Positions 1-4,051 of a stretch of 4,051 bases of DNA are shown here, piece by piece. The stretch lies in the NCBI RefSeq assembly GCF_024223415.1, contig NZ_CP100507.1; one strand, given 5' to 3'. This DNA comes from Escherichia coli. GTDB taxonomy: Bacteria > Pseudomonadota > Gammaproteobacteria > Enterobacterales > Enterobacteriaceae. Numbering within the stretch: position 1 is the stretch's first letter; each line of letters starts with the position of its first letter. Made by a program: the position numbers and the translations under genes. A model generated the notes under the pieces. It saw only the letters and a list, made by a program, of their open reading frames with translations. It was not told the origin of the DNA and made no database searches.

Positions 1-887
1 GGGCGTTAAGTGGTCGCGATTATATATCTAATGCCGCTGTTCATACTAGGAAAAGAACAGTTATATGTCTTGATATCACCAATTTTTATCCCAGCATTAG
101 TAAAAAAGATGTTTGTTCTATTTTTAAAAATTTAATGCGTTTTTCTCCTGATGTTTCTTTATGCTTAACGGAACTTGTGACGTTGAATAATAAGGTCCCT
201 CAGGGTGGGTGCTGTTCTAGTTATATTGCAAATCTTTTATTTTTTAATAGTGAGTATAATCTCTATAATAGATTGAAGTCTATGGGGCTTTCATATTCAA
301 GGCTTTTAGATGATATTACTATATCTTCTGATAAGGATCTTTCATCAGAGGAAAAAACAAAAGTAATAAAACTCGTTCACGGAATGGTGAATCAGTACAG
401 ACTTTCAATAAATGAAAGTAAGACAACGATAGAGCACTCAAAAGATTCGTCTTCTAAACTTAGTGTCACTGGGTTGTGGGTAAAGCATGGTGTTCCTAAG
501 TTAACAAAAGAAAATAGACGTTATATCAGGTACTTAGTTTATATATGTAAAAAACAAGGTGCTTATGAACGTCATACGAAAGAGTACCATGATTTATGGA
601 ATAGATGCTCTGGCAAGGTTGCTCAAATGTCGAGGCTTGGGCATGTCCAGGCGGTTGAATTGAGGGCGATTCTTTCTGAGATAATGCCAGTTTATGATGA
701 TTACAAGATATCTAAATTAAAGTTGATGGCTAAGCACTATCTAAATAAGTTTACGCCGCCTTTAACTGATGATCAGATTAGGAAAATAGATAGGATGCTC
801 TATGATTTTGATATAGTAGGGCGGACTAATAAGAATCTTGCAAAACTATATAGACGTAAGCTCGTGGCATTACTTCCAGATAGGTGA
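1..887 (+). CDS. Retron-type reverse transcriptase, 3' part (nt 1-2 complete the codon begun at 4051; 294 further codons; TGA 885-887). Whole gene 3799..4051 + 1..887 = 379 aa
   Basis: Frame 3 is open from nt 3, upstream of the track's first Met at 135. RT motifs occur in the canonical order:
- ISNAAVH (NAxxH, 30-44)
- VICLDITNFYPSI
- VPQGGCCSSYIANLLF (PQG)
- YSRLLDDITIS (catalytic box, LLDD at 303-314)
- LSINESKT
- SVTGLWV (VTG at 465-473)
NAxxH and VTG are signatures I associate specifically with retron RTs. Confidence 0.9.
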   Translation, partial: ALSGRDYISNAAVHTRKRTVICLDITNFYPSISKKDVCSIFKNLMRFSPDVSLCLTELVTLNNKVPQGGCCSSYIANLLFFNSEYNLYNRLKSMGLSYSRLLDDITISSDKDLSSEEKTKVIKLVHGMVNQYRLSINESKTTIEHSKDSSSKLSVTGLWVKHGVPKLTKENRRYIRYLVYICKKQGAYERHTKEYHDLWNRCSGKVAQMSRLGHVQAVELRAILSEIMPVYDDYKISKLKLMAKHYLNKFTPPLTDDQIRKIDRMLYDFDIVGRTNKNLAKLYRRKLVALLPDR

Positions 888-891
888 TTAT

Positions 892-1095
892 ATGGAAAAT
901 GGATTTGTTAATTTTTATGACCATGTTAAAGGGTATGGCTTTATAAGGCGTGAGCGTGGACGTGATGTTTTCTTTCGGTATGATGATTTTTTGTTTTTAG
1001 GGCATGATGTCGATATATGTAAAGGTATTTTAGTTAGGTTTAAATTAGAAAAAACAGATAAAGGGTTTAAAGCTGTAGCGATTCAAAAGGTATAA
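892..1095 (+). CDS. Cold-shock-domain (CspA-like OB-fold) protein, 67 aa, translationally coupled to the RT
   Basis: ATG at 892 lies 4 nt after the RT stop, with AGGTGA (882-887) as a Shine-Dalgarno overlapping that stop. MENGFVNFYDHVKGYGFIRRERGRDVFFRYDDF... aligns by eye to CspA ([28 protein letters not shown]). The RNP1-like KGYGFI (928-945) and RNP2-like VFFRY (967-981) motifs are retained. The track's 838 start is a TTG inside the RT gene, so I prefer 892. Confidence 0.85.
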   Translation: MENGFVNFYDHVKGYGFIRRERGRDVFFRYDDFLFLGHDVDICKGILVRFKLEKTDKGFKAVAIQKV

Positions 1096-1171: not shown

Positions 1172-1205
1172 GTAAACGAAAAAACCGCCTTGCAGGGCGG
1201 TTTTT
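1172..1205 (-). terminator. RNA I terminator hairpin (also stem-loop I of RNA II on the plus strand)
   Basis: ccgcc(t)-tgca-(g)ggcgg stem at 1185-1200, flanked by an A-run (1179-1184) and a T-run (1201-1205). On the minus strand the hairpin is followed by TTTTTTCGTTT. Confidence 0.75.
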
Positions 1206-1278
1206 CGAAGGTTCTCAGAGCTACCAACTCTTTGAGCCGAGGTAACTGGCTTGGAGGAGCGCAGTCACCAAAACTTGT
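1172..1278 (-). ncRNA. RNA I antisense copy-number regulator (~107 nt)
   Basis: The minus-strand 5' end ACAAGTTTTGGTGACTGC aligns with pMB1 RNA I ACAGTATTTGGTATCTGC. The 3' end is a GC hairpin (1185-1200) followed by a T-run on the minus strand. RNA I is fully complementary to the RNA II 5' end. Confidence 0.85.
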
Positions 1279-1932: not shown

Positions 1933-2127
1933 TTATATCCCGGTGCGATTTTCCGCTTCAAAGCGTGTCTGTATGCTGTTCTGAAGTTCTTCCGCGAGTT
2001 CGTGCAGCTTCTCACACATGGCGGCCTGTTCGTCAGCATCAAGTGCGTCCAGTTTTTCGAGCAGCGTCAGGCTCTGGCTTTTTATGAATCCTGCCATGTT
2101 GAGTACGGTTTGCTGCTGCTTGTTCAT
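1933..2127 (-). CDS. rop: Rop/Rom, RNA I-RNA II kissing-complex modulator (64 aa)
   Basis: MNKQQQTVLNMAGFIKSQSLTLLEKLDALDADEQAAMCEKLHELAEEL... aligns by eye along its length with pBR322 Rop (MTKQEKTALNMARFIRSQTLTLLEKLNELDADEQADICESLHDHADEL...). Its position and orientation relative to the origin match pMB1. GGAG lies 11 nt upstream of the ATG. Confidence 0.93.
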   Translation of the reverse strand: MNKQQQTVLNMAGFIKSQSLTLLEKLDALDADEQAAMCEKLHELAEELQNSIQTRFEAENRTGI

Positions 2128-2410
2128 CTTTCTGTTTTCTCCGTTCTTTCTGTCATCTGCGTTGTGTGATTATATCGCGTACCACTTTTCGACTGTTTTA
2201 CCGTCGGTATTCTGCTGTCTGACTCTTTGACGGGCATTTCTGTCAGACAACACTGTCACTGCCAAAAAACTGCCGTGCCTTTGTCGGTAATTTGAGCTTG
2301 CTGACAGGACAGGATGTGCAATTGTTATACCGCGCATACATGCACGCTATTACAATTACCCTGGTCAGGGCTTTGCCCCGACACCCATGTCAGATACGGA
2401 GCCATGTTTT

Positions 2411-2734
2411 ATGACAAAACGAAGTGGAAGTAATACGCGCAGGCGGGCTATCAGTCGCCCTGTTCGTCTGACGGCAGAAGAAGACCAGGAAATCAGAAAA
2501 AGGGCTGCTGAATGCGGCAAGACCGTTTCCGGTTTTTTACGGGCGGCAGCTCTCGGTAAGAAAGTTAACTCACTGACTGATGATCGGGTACTGAAAGAAG
2601 TTATGAGACTGGGGGCGTTACAGAAAAAACTCTTTATCGACGGCAAGCGTGTCGGGGACAGGGAGTATGCGGAGGTGCTGATCGCTATTACGGAGTATCA
2701 CCGTGCCCTGTTATCCAGGCTTATGGCAGATTAG
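2411..2734 (+). CDS. mobC: MobC-family ribbon-helix-helix relaxosome accessory protein (107 aa from ATG 2411; alternative ATG 2387 gives 115 aa)
   Basis: RPVRLTAEEDQEIRKRAAECGKTVSGFLRAAALGKK has the beta-strand/helix/helix RHH layout typical of MobC/NikA-type mobilisation accessory proteins. GGAG (2398-2401) lies 9 nt before ATG 2411. There is no Shine-Dalgarno before 2387. Confidence 0.7.
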   Translation: MTKRSGSNTRRRAISRPVRLTAEEDQEIRKRAAECGKTVSGFLRAAALGKKVNSLTDDRVLKEVMRLGALQKKLFIDGKRVGDREYAEVLIAITEYHRALLSRLMAD

Positions 2735-2898: not shown

Positions 2899-2923
2899 CA
2901 GAATCGCGCTGAGCGCGATTCTG
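2899..2923. repeat. Perfect 25-nt palindrome (12-bp arms, 1-nt centre) abutting the XerC arm
   Basis: CAGAATCGCGCT-G-AGCGCGATTCTG. Its reverse complement differs only at the central base. The equivalent ColE1 cer position carries a shorter, imperfect GC hairpin followed by Ts (from memory). Confidence 0.85.
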
Positions 2924-2958: not shown

Positions 2959-3225
2959 TTGGTTAAATTACTATTGGTGAGAAATGAATATTTCAATAAA
3001 AACAATGACTTAAAAACCGTTGCTCGGTTTGACGGTAAAACCTTAAGAGATGCCTTTTCGAGAAAAATAGCGACTTTTGATGGCAAGGTTTTAAGGGATG
3101 CCTCTTTAAAAAAAGTAGCAACCTTTGACGGTCAGAATTTAAGAGATGCTAGTTCAAAAATTATCCTGAGTGCCGATGCTGAGGTTGGGATTGTTGTTAT
3201 GGCCTTTGTAGCTGAGTTGATTTGA
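2959..3225 (+). CDS. Hypothetical small protein with three 16-aa tandem repeats and a hydrophobic C-terminal tail (88 codons from TTG 2959; GTG 2977 is an alternative start)
   Basis: Open frame from 2959 to TGA at 3223-3225. The repeats are VARFDGKTLRDAFSRK / IATFDGKVLRDASLKK / VATFDGQNLRDASSKI. The conserved residues use different synonymous codons between copies (gac/gat/gac, ggt/ggc/ggt, aga/agg/aga, gcc/gcc/gct), which argues for selection on the protein. Against: no in-frame ATG before codon 82 and no recognisable Shine-Dalgarno. Confidence 0.55.
   Translation: MVKLLLVRNEYFNKNNDLKTVARFDGKTLRDAFSRKIATFDGKVLRDASLKKVATFDGQNLRDASSKIILSADAEVGIVVMAFVAELI
3019..3162 (+). repeat. 3 x 48-bp diverged tandem repeat (3019-3066, 3067-3114, 3115-3162), in frame with ORF 2959-3225
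   Basis: Hand alignment gives about 31/48 identical nt between copies 1 and 2. The period is a multiple of 3, and much of the variation within the conserved F-D-G-x-x-L-R-D-A core is at third codon positions. Confidence 0.85.
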
Positions 3226-3507
3226 ATCTCATGCTGCATACCTTTTAGCCTATCGCTGGCAGGATAAGGCGCTTTCTTGTTGGTGACAGAAAGATAAAAA
3301 ACTTTATAATAATCAGCGAAGCGGGCGAACCACGCCTGGCTCTCGCTCTTTAACAAATGGTTACGTGTATGTTGCGCAAGGAAACCGATGCCTTGTTTTT
3401 AAGGCGATCTCGCATGAGATCATGACCGGCCTGGCCGCTAATTAATGGTGAGAACGCCCCTGAGCGTGTATCAGCACTAAAAGAATAGCGACGATTGTCT
3501 GGCAATG

Positions 3508-3520
3508 TGAGTTAAAAGTC
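3508..3520 (+). repeat. Inverted repeat arm a1 (candidate)
   Basis: 13/13 complementarity to 3780-3792. Confidence 0.7.
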
Positions 3521-3594
3521 CCAAAGAGCCAATAGAGTTTTTCCTTGCTTTCCTACTGGTCTGGCAAAATTTCATAACCAATAGGAGTTGCATC

Positions 3595-3777
3595 ATGTTT
3601 ATTATCAACATCAACATTAACGTAACCAAGAGCTCTTCATCTTGTTCTGGAGACGGTCAGATGAAGAAAAAAAGAGAGGTTGGCTCTCTGGAGGCACTGA
3701 AAAAAACACAGTTTTTGTTTTCTATGTGCTTGATTATGTTTAAAGTAATAGATTACGTATCGAAACTTTTTAACTAA
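3595..3777 (+). CDS. Hypothetical 60-aa ORF lying entirely inside the candidate retron ncRNA (internal alternative start 3661 gives 38 aa)
   Basis: AGGAG (3583-3587) lies 7 nt before ATG 3595, and GGAGA (3649-3653) lies 7 nt before the in-frame ATG 3661. The product MFIINININVTKSSSSCSGDGQMKKKREVGSLEALKKTQFLFSMCLIMFKVIDYVSKLFN is low-complexity with no motif I recognise. It may be non-coding. Confidence 0.3.
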   Translation: MFIINININVTKSSSSCSGDGQMKKKREVGSLEALKKTQFLFSMCLIMFKVIDYVSKLFN

Positions 3778-3779
3778 TC

Positions 3780-3792
3780 GACTTTTAACTCA
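3780..3792 (+). repeat. Inverted repeat arm a2 (candidate), preceded by a degenerate tandem copy at 3765-3776 (ACTTTTTAACTA vs ACTTTTAACTCA)
   Basis: 13/13 complementarity to 3508-3520. The adjacent near-duplicate offers an alternative pairing register. Confidence 0.7.
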
Positions 3793-3798
3793 AACATC

Positions 3799-4051
3799 AT
3801 GAATAAACCCAGGTTTAATGGAACTCCTGTTGCATCTTTGGATTCTTTATCTGCGATGTTAGGCATAGAAAGAAAAAGATTGGACTGGATAGTCAAGTCT
3901 GTATCGATGTCGTACAAGCAGTTTAAGGTTGAAACAGGGAAGAATAAAAAAGAAAGGCAAATTTTTGAACCCAAGAGATCTTTGAAAGGAATTCAAAAAA
4001 AAATAAATAAAGAGATTTTTGAGAAAATTGATTACCCTCATTATTTGCATG
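3799..4051 (+). CDS. Retron-type reverse transcriptase, 5' part (84 codons + 1 nt; runs off the window end and continues at nt 1)
   Basis: ATG at 3799 with no stop through 4051. An in-frame TAA at 3775-3777 makes 3799 the only available start. The translation MNKPRFNGTPVASLDSLSAMLGIERKRLDWIVKSVSMSYKQFKVETGKNKKERQIFEPKRSLKGIQKKINKEIFEKIDYPHYLH fits the retron RT N-terminal pattern (Y..F.h.K..G..R.I..P...LK.IQ..I...I). It is absent from the supplied ORF track because it is open-ended. No obvious Shine-Dalgarno. Confidence 0.88.
   Translation, partial: MNKPRFNGTPVASLDSLSAMLGIERKRLDWIVKSVSMSYKQFKVETGKNKKERQIFEPKRSLKGIQKKINKEIFEKIDYPHYLH

What the first reader, a model, noticed from the sequence alone, without database searches (positions are those of the whole stretch)
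1..1095. Retron-type RT translationally coupled to a cold-shock-domain protein, with no classical toxin domain
The RT stop (885-887) and the CSD start (892) are 4 nt apart, with the Shine-Dalgarno overlapping the RT stop. The two are therefore made from one mRNA, probably with coupled translation.

Established knowledge: retrons are tripartite anti-phage systems (RT, msDNA, effector). Effectors are usually nucleases, NAD- or nucleotide-targeting enzymes, or membrane proteins. A CSD-associated retron class has been catalogued (I believe as type V in the 2020 retron classification, to be checked). To my knowledge its mechanism is unresolved.

Here the only RT-coupled partner is a 67-aa OB-fold ssDNA/RNA binder that keeps the RNP1/RNP2 aromatic residues. 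It could sense or sequester msDNA, or act on translation or RNA, rather than kill directly. The system is the sole cargo of a multicopy plasmid.
Basis: partly seen in the sequence, partly recalled or inferred. Interest (0 to 1): 0.8.

Follow-up and report, generated by a model that had tools for sequence, protein, structure and literature searches.

The report
Known Se72 retron on small plasmid

Summary
The reverse transcriptase (RT) stop TGA is at 885-887 and the cold-shock-domain (CSD) start ATG is at 892. AGGTGA (882-887) overlaps the stop, and the CSD protein is 67 aa.

The window is a circularly permuted, complete 4051-bp ColE1-type plasmid, 100% identical to deposited E. coli plasmids. 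The RT actually starts at 3799 and wraps round to 887 (379 aa). PADLOC calls the proteins RT_V and CSD_V. NCBIfam and PGAP already name the CSD "retron Se72 family effector protein".

This is Retron-Sen1 (Se72), type V, a published anti-phage system. It is triggered by lambda Gam or loss of RecB. How the CSD acts is still unresolved.

A 60-aa ORF (3595-3777) lies inside a ~475-nt covarying structured RNA upstream of the RT. An ORF in that position is present in 25 of 26 type V loci (about 1 expected by chance). It resembles the toxic small protein of the sister type VI retrons in architecture, not in sequence.

Verdict: already known, low-to-moderate interest. The side lead is that the small protein, not the CSD, may be the toxin.

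The parts
3283..3310 (+). Sigma-70-type promoter-like site (GTGACA, 16 nt, TATAAT). Probable retron promoter.
   Evidence: 11 of 12 consensus matches, the best site in the window. Cross-species sequence conservation of the retron RNA begins a few bases downstream, at about 3318.
3318..3792 (+). Structured retron RNA of about 475 nt, containing the msr/msd functions and the small ORF. Similar in layout to the type VI 'hybrid RNA'.
   Evidence: Alignment of 11 type V loci (A7). RNAalifold consensus. 97.1% of cells paired; 21 pairs change on both sides against 8.0 +/- 2.0 in shuffles (0/500) and 5-9 in the slid controls. This stretch is 100% identical in Salmonella Se72-type plasmids. The msd position inside it was not determined here.
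3509..3520 (+). 5' arm of the outer (a1/a2-like) stem, GAGTTAAAAGTC. It lies just after the invariant TTGTCTGGCAA motif.
   Evidence: Pairs with 3780-3791. Compensatory changes in L009, L058, L059 and L060. Lineage-specific arm sequences at the same position in distant type V loci.
3780..3791 (+). 3' arm of the outer stem, GACTTTTAACTC. It lies immediately after the small-ORF stop and 7 nt before the RT ATG.
3521..3533 (+). 5' strand of the inner long-range stem (pairs with 3679-3691, inside the small ORF).
   Evidence: 11 pairs, 6 of them with changes on both sides (helix 8). Coordinates.
3357..3375 (+). 5' linker that pairs with nt 17-35 of the small ORF (3611-3629). This helix crosses the outer and inner stems, so it is either a pseudoknot or an alternative conformer.
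   Evidence: Present in all 11 sequences, with a different paired sequence in almost every lineage. dG -8.9 to -20.8 kcal/mol; z -1.7 to -4.4 against shuffled linkers. Also found as inverted repeat I4 and in the single-sequence MFE fold.
3595..3777 (+). Small ORF, 60 aa: MFIINININVTKSSSSCSGDGQMKKKREVGSLEALKKTQFLFSMCLIMFKVIDYVSKLFN. SD AGGAG at 3583-3587. Candidate toxin or regulatory ORF.
   Evidence: An ATG-ORF of at least 50 aa ends 10-60 nt before the RT in 25 of 26 type V loci; shuffles give a mean of 0.96 and a maximum of 4. dN/dS is 0.28-0.49 in frame and 0.88-2.8 off frame in the enterobacterial subgroup, but there is no such signal in two other pairs. About 30 database clusters, all named 'hypothetical', with no Pfam domain. 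AF2: residues 22-59 form one helix; block-mean pLDDT is 76-89 over residues 31-60. RBS and AUG are predicted to be mostly paired.
3799..4051 (+). Retron RT, N-terminal 84 codons. The ORF continues at window position 1.
   Evidence: The CDS is contiguous in NZ_CP066843.1.
1..887 (+). Retron RT, remainder (379 aa in total). Contains NAAVH (NAxxH, residues 95-99), catalytic LLDD (186-189) and VTG (240-242).
   Evidence: PADLOC RT_V, E 2.6e-127, residues 1-373. Pfam RVT_1. N95, H99, D188, D189, V240, T241 and G242 are invariant in 32 relatives.
882..887 (+). Shine-Dalgarno-like AGGTGA for the CSD gene, overlapping the RT stop.
   Evidence: Sequence. The arrangement is conserved in relatives.
892..1095 (+). 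Cold-shock-domain protein, 67 aa ('retron Se72 family effector').
   Evidence: NCBIfam NF038236, 85.2 bits (cut-off 82). PADLOC CSD_V, 3.4e-25. Pfam CSD. Full-length matches to solved Csp proteins, 2lxj at 1.3e-6. RNP1 KG[FY]GFI is conserved across type V.
1176..1276 (-). RNAI of a ColE1-type replicon (plasmid backbone, not part of the retron).
   Evidence: Rfam RF00106, 94.6 bits (gathering score 47).
1933..2127 (-). Rop (plasmid backbone).
   Evidence: Pfam Rop, 111.6 bits. PGAP annotation.
2387..2734 (+). MobA / NikA-like mobilization protein (backbone).
   Evidence: NCBIfam MobA, 112.7 bits; Pfam NikA-like.
2959..3225 (+). 88-aa ORF with three 48-nt tandem repeats. An independent plasmid gene, not part of the retron.
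   Evidence: Repeats. A 47%-identical homolog lies on Klebsiella ColRNAI plasmids that have no retron.

Best explanation
**Identity (shown).** The window is a whole 4051-bp multicopy ColE1-type plasmid. Its main cargo is Retron-Sen1 (Se72), the reference type V retron. The operon order is:
- promoter (3283-3310);
- a structured RNA of about 475 nt (3318-3792) that holds the reverse-transcription template functions and an embedded 60-aa ORF;
- the RT (3799 -> wraps -> 887);
- a translationally coupled 67-aa CSD protein (892-1095).

**Function (from the literature).**
- The system is an abortive-infection anti-phage defence active against lambda-vir.
- It is switched on when RecBCD is inhibited, by lambda Gam or by recB deletion.
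- T5 Rad, which degrades retron ncRNA, switches it off.

**Output step (inferred, not shown).** This is my preferred reading, held at about 0.4 on its own.
- The CSD protein is made in step with the RT. It acts as the single-strand-binding or chaperone subunit of the RT-RNA-DNA complex, not as the killer.
- The lethal output is the small protein with a hydrophobic C-terminal helix. Its translation is normally blocked because its ribosome-binding site and first codons are folded into the retron RNA.
- When RecBCD no longer removes the retron's linear DNA product, the RNA is remodelled and the small protein is made. This parallels what has been shown for the sister type VI retrons.
For: **Identity:**
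- 100% identity over the full length to circular E. coli plasmids. PGAP labels match.
- RT_V at 423 bits and CSD_V at 3.4e-25. NF038236 scores above its curated cut-off.
- Mestre 2020 lists type V as CSD-associated, with Retron-Sen1 (Se72) as the example.
- The ncRNA and small-ORF stretch is 100% identical in Salmonella plasmids.

**Function:**
- Defence against one phage of the panel.
- Gam is sufficient for toxicity, and the system cannot be transformed efficiently into a recB deletion strain. The Gam trigger was repeated independently.
- Rad rescues lambda-vir from Se72.

**Inferred output step:**
- The small ORF is present in 25 of 26 type V loci, against about 1 expected.
- Frame-specific purifying selection in the subgroup that contains the window.
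- A long C-terminal helix, block-mean pLDDT 76-89 over residues 31-60.
- The ORF is enclosed by covarying long-range helices.
- The RBS and AUG are predicted to be mostly paired in 11 of 11 RNAs: unpaired probability 0.21 and 0.18, against an RNA-wide mean of 0.40.
- In type VI, a small protein with a hydrophobic C-terminal helix, encoded in a ~470-nt RNA closed by 5'/3' repeats, is the demonstrated toxin. The DNA-binding accessory there is a regulator.
- Clade-3 loci exist with only a small protein and an RT (L047, L049, L050).
- Direction of the trigger: RecBCD loss should stabilise linear DNA, not destroy it. That fits activation by accumulated DNA better than the classical model in which msDNA is the antitoxin (inference).
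- From memory, because the paper is not held in the library: Rychlik 2001 reported that the CSD ORF and an ORF of unknown function are both needed for synthesis of the Se72 DNA product. [quoted passage not shown]
Against: **Identity:** nothing found against it.

**Against the inferred output step:**
- No experiment separates the small ORF from the CSD. All published constructs necessarily contain both.
- No sequence homology to the type VI small proteins (hhalign probability 1.2%).
- Two more distant pairs show no coding selection: dN/dS 1.0 and 0.72, no lower than the off-frame controls (0.56-0.74).
- Only about half of the small ORFs have a clearly membrane-like hydrophobic segment.
- The invariant SGD and other motifs coincide with invariant RNA elements. 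Part of the apparent protein conservation may therefore be RNA-level constraint.
- Se72 is reported to make detectable DNA without phage, unlike type VI.
- The field and NCBI call the CSD the effector.
- E. coli CspD, the closest generic Csp model by score, is toxic when overproduced (my own knowledge). So a CSD can itself be a toxin.
Confidence: 0.8

Rival explanations
1. Textbook reading. The CSD protein is the sole toxic effector. It is held inactive by the RT-msDNA complex, for example bound to the single-stranded overhangs of the Se72 DNA. When RecBCD is inhibited it is released, then arrests growth by coating cellular ssDNA or RNA, as a CspD-like block on replication or translation. The small ORF is irrelevant as a protein.
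For: - NCBIfam and PGAP name it the effector. The Sorek-lab paper calls it the effector.
- The CSD is present after the RT in 36 of 38 loci with a full-length RT; in the other two the fetched sequence ends at or just after the RT stop. It is translationally coupled.
- The RNP1 nucleic-acid-binding motif is conserved across type V, and there is an extra invariant I18/R20 basic extension (Arg19 varies).
- The best generic Csp model is CspD. CspD overproduction is lethal in E. coli (my own knowledge).
Against: - In the papers read here I found no test of the Se72 CSD alone or mutated; those papers name it the effector on the basis of its domain and position.
- RecBCD inhibition should preserve linear retron DNA, which would keep a DNA-sequestered CSD bound, not release it (inference).
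- In the sister type VI, the nucleic-acid-binding accessory turned out to be a regulator and the small protein the toxin.
- This reading does not explain why an open reading frame is kept in 25 of 26 loci.
Confidence: 0.35
2. The small ORF is not a functional protein. [quoted passage not shown]
For: - The ORF overlaps covarying helices and invariant nucleotide blocks, including TCTGGAGAC, which encodes 'SGD'.
- No coding signal in the L013/L028 and L019/L021 pairs.
- Protein sequences diverge almost completely between distant lineages.
- Simon 2019 treats it as an RNA element.
Against: - Open frames of at least 50 codons in 25 of 26 loci, against about 1 expected and a maximum of 4 in 200 shuffles. 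RNA structure does not require an ORF.
- A good SD at 7-nt spacing.
- In-frame dN/dS of 0.28-0.49 against 0.88-2.8 off frame in four pairs with off-frame controls.
- The same layout in distant lineages: a basic patch followed by a C-terminal hydrophobic helix.
Confidence: 0.25
3. The RT-CSD module is not primarily a phage-defence retron. It would be a plasmid-maintenance (addiction) module, or an RT of another class (group II intron, Abi, DRT).
For: It sits on a very small multicopy plasmid. Toxicity on perturbation could in principle stabilise the plasmid.
Against: - The RT matches RT_V over its full length at 423 bits. It scores 33 bits against the group II intron model and 17-36 bits against the Drt models.
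- The retron motifs NAxxH and VTG are invariant.
- Defence against lambda-vir and triggering by Gam are published.
- Relatives sit in chromosomes and in a P2-like prophage as well as on plasmids.
Confidence: 0.03

Closest known systems
Retron-Sen1 (Se72), Salmonella Enteritidis ~4.05-kb plasmid (Rychlik 2001; Pilousova and Rychlik 2011; type V of Mestre 2020)
   Same: - It is the same element: RT, CSD, small ORF and ncRNA in the same order on the same ColE1-type backbone.
- The ncRNA and small-ORF stretch is 100% identical to Salmonella copies.
- Whole-plasmid identity to Salmonella records is 97.8-98.4%.
   Different: - The exact 4051-bp sequence is deposited from E. coli. The backbone differs by about 2% from the Salmonella copies.
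- Variant plasmids of 4148 bp carry about 97 nt more, the length of two extra 48-nt repeat units of the neighbouring 88-aa ORF (this assignment was not checked by alignment).
Type VI retrons (Retron-Vpa2) with a 'hybrid RNA' (bioRxiv 10.1101/2025.10.22.683967)
   Same: - Same RT clade 3.
- A structured RNA of about 470 nt whose 3' end pairs back to a 5' repeat.
- A small ORF inside it, encoding a protein with a hydrophobic C-terminal helix.
- The RBS and AUG lie in structure.
- Conserved short direct repeats (here GTCTGGCAA at 3497 and 3559).
- A small nucleic-acid-binding accessory protein.
- Triggered through the lambda Red/Gam region and linked to RecBCD.
   Different: - The accessory is an HTH protein upstream of the RT, not a CSD downstream.
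- The small proteins share no detectable homology.
- Type VI DNA is undetectable without a trigger, whereas Se72 DNA is reported as detectable.
- Type VI needs Beta plus Exo, whereas Se72 needs only Gam.
- Toxicity of the type V small ORF is untested.
Type IV retron, Retron-Eco6 (Ec48)
   Same: Closely related RT. Same trigger logic: Gam or RecBCD inhibition, and toxicity in a recB deletion strain.
   Different: The effector is a two-transmembrane protein downstream of the RT, not a CSD. One type IV-like locus seen here (L044) has a 243-aa multi-TM protein after the RT.
Bacterial cold-shock proteins (CspA/CspB/CspD family, Pfam PF00313)
   Same: One-domain proteins of about 67 aa. Full-length alignment to solved Csp structures. 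RNP1 KGxGFI and the DVF part of RNP2 are kept.
   Different: - Sequence identity is low (E about 1e-6).
- There is a family-specific invariant I18/R20 basic extension (Arg19 varies).
- The RNP2 histidine is not conserved.
- The gene is always fused translationally to a retron RT.
Type I toxin mRNAs such as hok (analogy only, from my own knowledge)
   Same: A small hydrophobic-tailed peptide whose mRNA is kept untranslatable by long-range 5'-3' pairing and RBS occlusion.
   Different: No antisense RNA is evident here. The RNA is also an RT template. No homology.

Membership tests
Retron (RT + msr/msd ncRNA + effector) | RT of the retron clade, with the retron-specific NAxxH and VTG motifs and catalytic xxDD | tested here: met
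   NAAVH 95-99, LLDD 186-189 and VTG 240-242. The columns are invariant in 32 relatives. The best PADLOC hits are all retron RT models.
Retron (RT + msr/msd ncRNA + effector) | Structured ncRNA upstream of the RT, closed by inverted repeats (a1/a2) | tested here: met
   Outer stem 3509-3520 / 3780-3791 with compensatory changes. 21 covarying pairs overall. Present with lineage-specific arm sequences in distant loci. No Rfam family matched.
Retron (RT + msr/msd ncRNA + effector) | Production of msDNA with a 2'-5' branch from a priming guanosine | not testable with these tools
   The literature says Se72 makes a DNA product but lacks the observed 2'-5' linkage and an apparent priming G. The msd could not be mapped in the window.
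Retron (RT + msr/msd ncRNA + effector) | Anti-phage phenotype | not testable with these tools
   Published for Se72: lambda-vir defence, Gam trigger, recB dependence.
Type V retron / Se72 family | RT falls in the type V group of clade 3 | tested here: met
   RT_V 423 bits, against RT_VI 242 bits and RT_IV 219 bits.
Type V retron / Se72 family | Small CSD protein (67-86 aa) encoded directly downstream of the RT | tested here: met
   CSD at 892-1095, 4 nt after the RT stop. CSD_V 3.4e-25. NF038236 equivalog, 85.2 bits against a cut-off of 82. Mestre 2020 definition.
Cold-shock domain (PF00313) | Profile match above the gathering score, with RNP1 and RNP2 motifs | tested here: met
   33.4 bits against 27. 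KGYGFI is present. VFFRY corresponds to VFVHF with His replaced by Arg.
Cold-shock domain (PF00313) | Five-stranded OB-fold beta-barrel | tested here: inconclusive
   The single-sequence AF2 model had pLDDT 44 and is unusable. The fold is inferred from sequence only.
ColE1-type multicopy replicon | RNAI antisense RNA and Rop | tested here: met
   RF00106, 94.6 bits. Pfam Rop, 111.6 bits.
Type VI-like 'hybrid RNA' retron mechanism | Small ORF encoded inside the structured retron RNA, closed by a 5'/3' repeat, with an occluded RBS | tested here: met
   RBS occlusion is a thermodynamic prediction only.
Type VI-like 'hybrid RNA' retron mechanism | Small protein homologous to type VI SP | tested here: not met
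   hhalign probability 1.2%. The similarity is limited to size, the basic patch and the hydrophobic C-terminal helix.
Type VI-like 'hybrid RNA' retron mechanism | HTH accessory protein between the SP and the RT | tested here: not met
   No HTH ORF. The accessory is a CSD downstream of the RT.
Type VI-like 'hybrid RNA' retron mechanism | Small protein is the toxin, and msDNA derepresses its translation | not testable with these tools
   Requires genetics. See the decisive next steps.

The most novel reading that the evidence does not exclude
In type V retrons, including Se72, the killer is not the cold-shock-domain protein that databases call 'effector'. It is the unannotated ~60-aa protein with a hydrophobic C-terminal helix, encoded inside the retron RNA. 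The CSD is the RNA/ssDNA chaperone or repressor of an RT-RNA switch. The switch releases translation of that protein when RecBCD stops clearing the retron's DNA. On this reading, the 'hybrid RNA' mechanism just described for type VI would be ancestral to a larger part of retron clade 3.
Probability: 0.35. Interest if true: 0.6.

Novelty: already known. Interest (0 to 1): 0.3.

Why it matters
As stated, the finding re-discovers a catalogued defence system, so it adds nothing by itself.

It matters slightly more for two reasons.
- How RecBCD-guarding retrons sense their trigger and kill is still open. A July 2026 preprint says the surveillance mechanism 'remains undetermined'.
- The comparative data gathered here suggest the accepted parts list of type V (RT, ncRNA, CSD) lacks a conserved small ORF that is interwoven with the RNA structure.

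If that ORF is the toxin, the database label 'retron Se72 family effector protein' is attached to the wrong gene. Type V would then join type VI as a translation-gated retron.

Tried and rejected
- **Rfam scan of the whole window.** Only RNAI matched; no retron RNA family.
- **Phage collection.** No match to the ncRNA region.
- **Primary Se72 papers.** PMC99502 and PMC11114809, and their PMID and DOI, are not held. The 72-nt DNA product therefore could not be mapped onto the window. The type VI preprint's supplements mention Sen1 Spacer-seq coverage but give no coordinates. The census preprint does not mention type V or Sen1 by name.
- **Genome-contig scan with the single RT sequence.** It returned only near-identical copies, mis-binned into Oscillospiraceae and Streptococcus MAGs.
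- **Single-sequence AF2 of the CSD.** It failed (pLDDT 44). The word-based homolog search with the CSD returned only close copies.
- **Homology between type V and type VI small proteins.** Rejected.
- **Duplex search for the outer stem with long flanks.** The whole-segment z-scores were noisy because the method over-extends. Only the core helices were used.
- **The 88-aa repeat ORF as the third retron ORF.** Rejected, because a homolog sits on plasmids with no retron.
- **Group II intron, Abi or DRT identity for the RT.** Rejected on scores.
Full report
**1. What is in the window**

The 4051 bases are a complete, circularly permuted small plasmid.
- The whole window matches circular E. coli plasmids of exactly 4051 bp at 100% identity, as two pieces across each record's origin. 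It matches Salmonella plasmids of 4050-4054 bp at 97.8-98.4%.
- Joining the end of the window to its start gives one uninterrupted ORF from ATG 3799 through 4051 and 1 to the TGA at 885-887, 379 aa in all. In NZ_CP066843.1 the same ORF is annotated as one contiguous CDS.
- The backbone is ColE1-type:
  - RNAI at 1176-1276 on the minus strand (Rfam 94.6 bits against a gathering score of 47);
  - Rop at 1933-2127 on the minus strand;
  - a NikA-like MobA at 2387-2734.

**2. Check of the observation**

- The RT stop TGA is at 885-887, followed by TTAT, and the CSD ATG is at 892.
- AGGTGA (882-887) overlaps the stop.
- The CSD ORF runs 892-1095 and encodes 67 aa.

The only correction is that the RT is not confined to 1-887. 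Its first 84 codons are at 3799-4051.

The coupling is not a chance juxtaposition.
- Of 38 fetched loci with a full-length RT ORF at 33-100% RT identity, 36 have a CSD ORF immediately after the RT. In the other two (L004, L024) the fetched sequence ends at or just after the RT stop.
- In the 15 loci measured, the distance from RT stop to CSD start is -11 to +4 nt. Fourteen of the 15 have an SD-like motif inside the RT's 3' end.

**3. Identity**

The RT is a retron RT of type V.
- PADLOC RT_V matches residues 1-373 at E 2.6e-127 (423 bits). RT_VI scores 242 bits and RT_IV 219 bits.
- The group II intron model scores 33 bits and the Drt models 17-36 bits.
- In an alignment of 32 relatives, the retron hallmarks are invariant: N95 and H99 of NAxxH, D188-D189, and V240-T241-G242.

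The small protein is CSD_V.
- PADLOC gives 3.4e-25.
- It exceeds the curated cut-off of NCBIfam NF038236, 'retron Se72 family effector protein', at 85.2 bits against 82.
- It passes Pfam CSD and aligns over its full length to solved cold-shock proteins.
- PGAP already prints the 'retron Se72 family effector protein' name on the deposited plasmids.

Mestre et al. 2020 define type V as clade-3 RTs with small 67-86-aa CSD proteins, and give Retron-Sen1 (Se72) as the example. The 491 bases upstream of and into the RT are 100% identical in Salmonella plasmids. The window therefore carries Se72 itself. The module occurs in 29 of 5,426 complete E. coli genomes, nearly always on plasmids.

**4. What is already known about how it works**

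- Se72 with its accessory gene protects E. coli against one phage of a 12-phage panel.
- Nine of ten lambda-vir escapers map to the gam-bet-exo operon. Gam alone is toxic in Se72 cells, and the Se72 plasmid transforms more than 60-fold less efficiently into a recB deletion strain. The system was therefore concluded to guard RecBCD, like the related Ec48.
- The Gam trigger was reproduced independently.
- T5 Rad, which degrades retron ncRNA, rescues lambda-vir from Se72.
- Se72 is biochemically odd. No 2'-5' branch and no apparent priming G have been observed. [quoted passage not shown]
- From memory, because the paper is not held: Rychlik 2001 found that three ORFs were needed for the DNA product, namely an ORF of unknown function, the RT and the CSD.
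- How RecBCD status is sensed, and what the CSD does, remain unpublished in the searchable literature. A July 2026 preprint still says the surveillance mechanism is undetermined.

**5.

Between a near-consensus promoter (3283-3310, 11 of 12) and the RT lies a 60-aa ORF at 3595-3777. It has a strong SD (AGGAG at 3583-3587, 7-nt spacer).

Conservation of the ORF:
- Gene callers place a 51-73-aa gene in the same spot in eight looked-up relatives: Providencia, Leclercia, Pseudomonas, Massilia, Mixta, Halomonas, Morganella and the metagenomic L059 and L061.
- Systematically, an ATG-ORF of at least 50 aa ends 10-60 nt before the RT in 25 of 26 type V loci. Shuffled upstream regions give a mean of 0.96 and a maximum of 4 in 200 trials.
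- The layout recurs: an alternating N-terminal stretch, a basic patch, and a hydrophobic C-terminal segment.
- AlphaFold with a 22-sequence alignment gives one long helix over residues 22-59, with block-mean pLDDT of 76-89 over residues 31-60.
- In the enterobacterial subgroup that contains the window, in-frame dN/dS is 0.28-0.49 against 0.88-2.8 in the other frames. Two more distant pairs show no such signal.
- The family has about 30 clusters, all named 'hypothetical protein', with no Pfam domain. It is absent from the type V definition of Mestre 2020.

**6. The ORF is interwoven with a conserved RNA structure**

Conservation across 11 loci starts at about 3318, right after the promoter, and runs to the RT. 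The consensus structure has these elements:
- an outer stem, 3509-3520 / 3780-3791, whose 3' arm begins two bases after the small-ORF stop;
- an inner stem, 3521-3533 / 3679-3691, whose 3' strand is codons 29-33 of the ORF;
- several hairpins.

Support for it:
- 97.1% of cells are paired.
- 21 pairs change on both sides, against 8.0 +/- 2.0 in shuffles (0/500) and 5-9 in the slid controls.
- The outer stem recurs, with entirely different arm sequences, in Vibrio, Massilia, Mixta, Halomonas and most of the metagenomic type V loci tested. It always lies just after a TTGTCTGGC-like motif on the 5' side and just after the ORF stop on the 3' side.

A further helix joins the variable 5' linker (3357-3375) to nt 17-35 of the ORF (3611-3629).
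- It is present in all 11 sequences, with a different paired sequence in almost every lineage.
- It crosses the other two stems. It is therefore either a pseudoknot or an alternative conformer.

In thermodynamic ensembles of all 11 RNAs, the ORF's SD and AUG are much more paired than the RNA average: unpaired probability 0.21 and 0.18 against 0.40. This last point is prediction only.

**7. Comparison with type VI**

In type VI retrons, which share RT clade 3, a ~470-nt 'hybrid RNA' contains the msr-msd and a small ORF.
- Its 3' end pairs back to a 5' repeat, and the RBS and AUG sit in stem-loops.
- The small protein, whose hydrophobic C-terminal helix is essential, is the demonstrated toxin.
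- The HTH accessory represses reverse transcription, and accumulated msDNA derepresses translation.
- RecBCD is proposed to turn over the msDNA.

The type V anatomy found here is parallel to this in almost every structural respect. The differences are:
- The accessory is a CSD downstream, not an HTH upstream.
- The small proteins are not detectably homologous (hhalign 1.2%).
- Se72 is reported to make detectable DNA without a trigger.
- Gam alone triggers Se72.

I also saw clade-3 loci with only a small protein and an RT (L047, L049, L050).

**8. Most likely mechanism and its rivals**

Shown:
- the identity of the element;
- the operon anatomy;
- RT-CSD coupling;
- a conserved structured RNA with an embedded conserved ORF.

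Taken from the literature:
- abortive defence against lambda-vir;
- activation by Gam or loss of RecB;
- inhibition by Rad.

Inferred, at about 0.4:
- The CSD is the single-strand-binding or chaperone subunit of the RT-RNA-DNA complex.
- The small protein is the toxin.
- Its translation is gated by the RNA fold and released when RecBCD no longer removes the linear retron DNA.
- The direction of the trigger favours this. Inhibiting an exonuclease should increase retron DNA, not remove it. That fits activation by DNA accumulation better than the classical model in which msDNA is the antitoxin.

Rivals:
- The CSD alone is the toxin, as annotated (0.35).
  - For it: the CSD is found wherever downstream sequence exists, its binding motifs are conserved, and CspD is known to be toxic (my own knowledge).
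  - Against it: I found no test of the CSD alone, and the trigger-direction argument applies.
- The small ORF has no protein function and is simply part of the msr/msd, or only its translation matters (0.25).
- A non-retron or addiction-module reading (0.03), effectively excluded.

**9. Other content of the plasmid**

The 88-aa ORF at 2959-3225 has three 48-nt repeats. The 4148-bp plasmid variants are about 97 nt longer, the length of two more repeat units. A 47%-identical homolog lies on Klebsiella ColRNAI plasmids that carry no retron. It is therefore a separate plasmid gene. 'Sole cargo' is close to right but not exact.

**10. Verdict**

The finding is a correct reading of a known system and is scored low for novelty.

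The residual interest lies in the unresolved effector step. It also lies in the comparative evidence that type V retrons contain a hybrid-RNA-like element with a conserved small ORF. That ORF is unannotated in most of the deposited records inspected and is missing from the standard classification.

Noticed in passing
window 2959-3225: An 88-aa ORF built around three 48-nt (16-aa) tandem repeats (ATFDGKxLRDAxxKK...), with a hydrophobic C-terminus. It has a weak, sub-threshold Pfam hit to the '5-fold beta-flower' family (E 2e-4). The 4148-bp plasmid variants are about 97 nt longer, the length of two more repeat units. A 47%-identical homolog lies on 4773-bp Klebsiella plasmids that have no retron.
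   Followed up: partly
window 553-564 (RT residues 186-189) and alignment A2: The RT catalytic box is LLDD, not the usual retron YADD. Y183-x-R185-L-L-D-D is invariant in all 32 type V relatives aligned, whereas the sister type VI RT is described as YADD.
   Followed up: partly
window 3497-3505 and 3559-3567: The direct repeat GTCTGGCAA occurs twice in the retron RNA. It is nearly invariant in 11 loci (GTCAGGCAA in three). It is reminiscent of the conserved 7-nt direct repeats proposed to mediate msDNA-RNA hybridisation in type VI.
   Followed up: partly
window 3646-3654: TCTGGAGAC inside the small ORF (codons S-G-D): GGAGAC and the first C are invariant at every codon position in 11 loci, and the flanking bases nearly so. 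This suggests an RNA- or DNA-level constraint, such as a protein-binding or priming site, and not only a protein motif.
   Followed up: no
window 2899-2923: A perfect 12-nt palindrome, CAGAATCGCGCT-G-AGCGCGATTCTG, lies between mobA and the repeat ORF. It may be an oriT/nic-region element or a terminator.
   Followed up: no
loci L047, L049, L050: Clade-3 retron RTs (270-298 aa) preceded only by an 81-82-aa small protein with a hydrophobic C-terminus. No HTH ORF was seen between it and the RT and no CSD was detected, though two of the three contigs end soon after the RT. This may be a minimal two-gene variant related to type VI.
   Followed up: no
loci L013 (Mixta calida), L008/L061 (Leclercia and relative), L005 (Providencia): Type V retrons sit in varied mobile contexts: between tail genes of a P2-like prophage, next to SymE/HicB-like toxin-antitoxin genes, and on Rep3-type small plasmids beside ParE.
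   Followed up: no
loci L002, L003: Copies of this enterobacterial plasmid (100% and 85% RT identity) are binned into MAGs labelled Oscillospiraceae and Streptococcus mitis. This is almost certainly a metagenome binning artefact.
   Followed up: no
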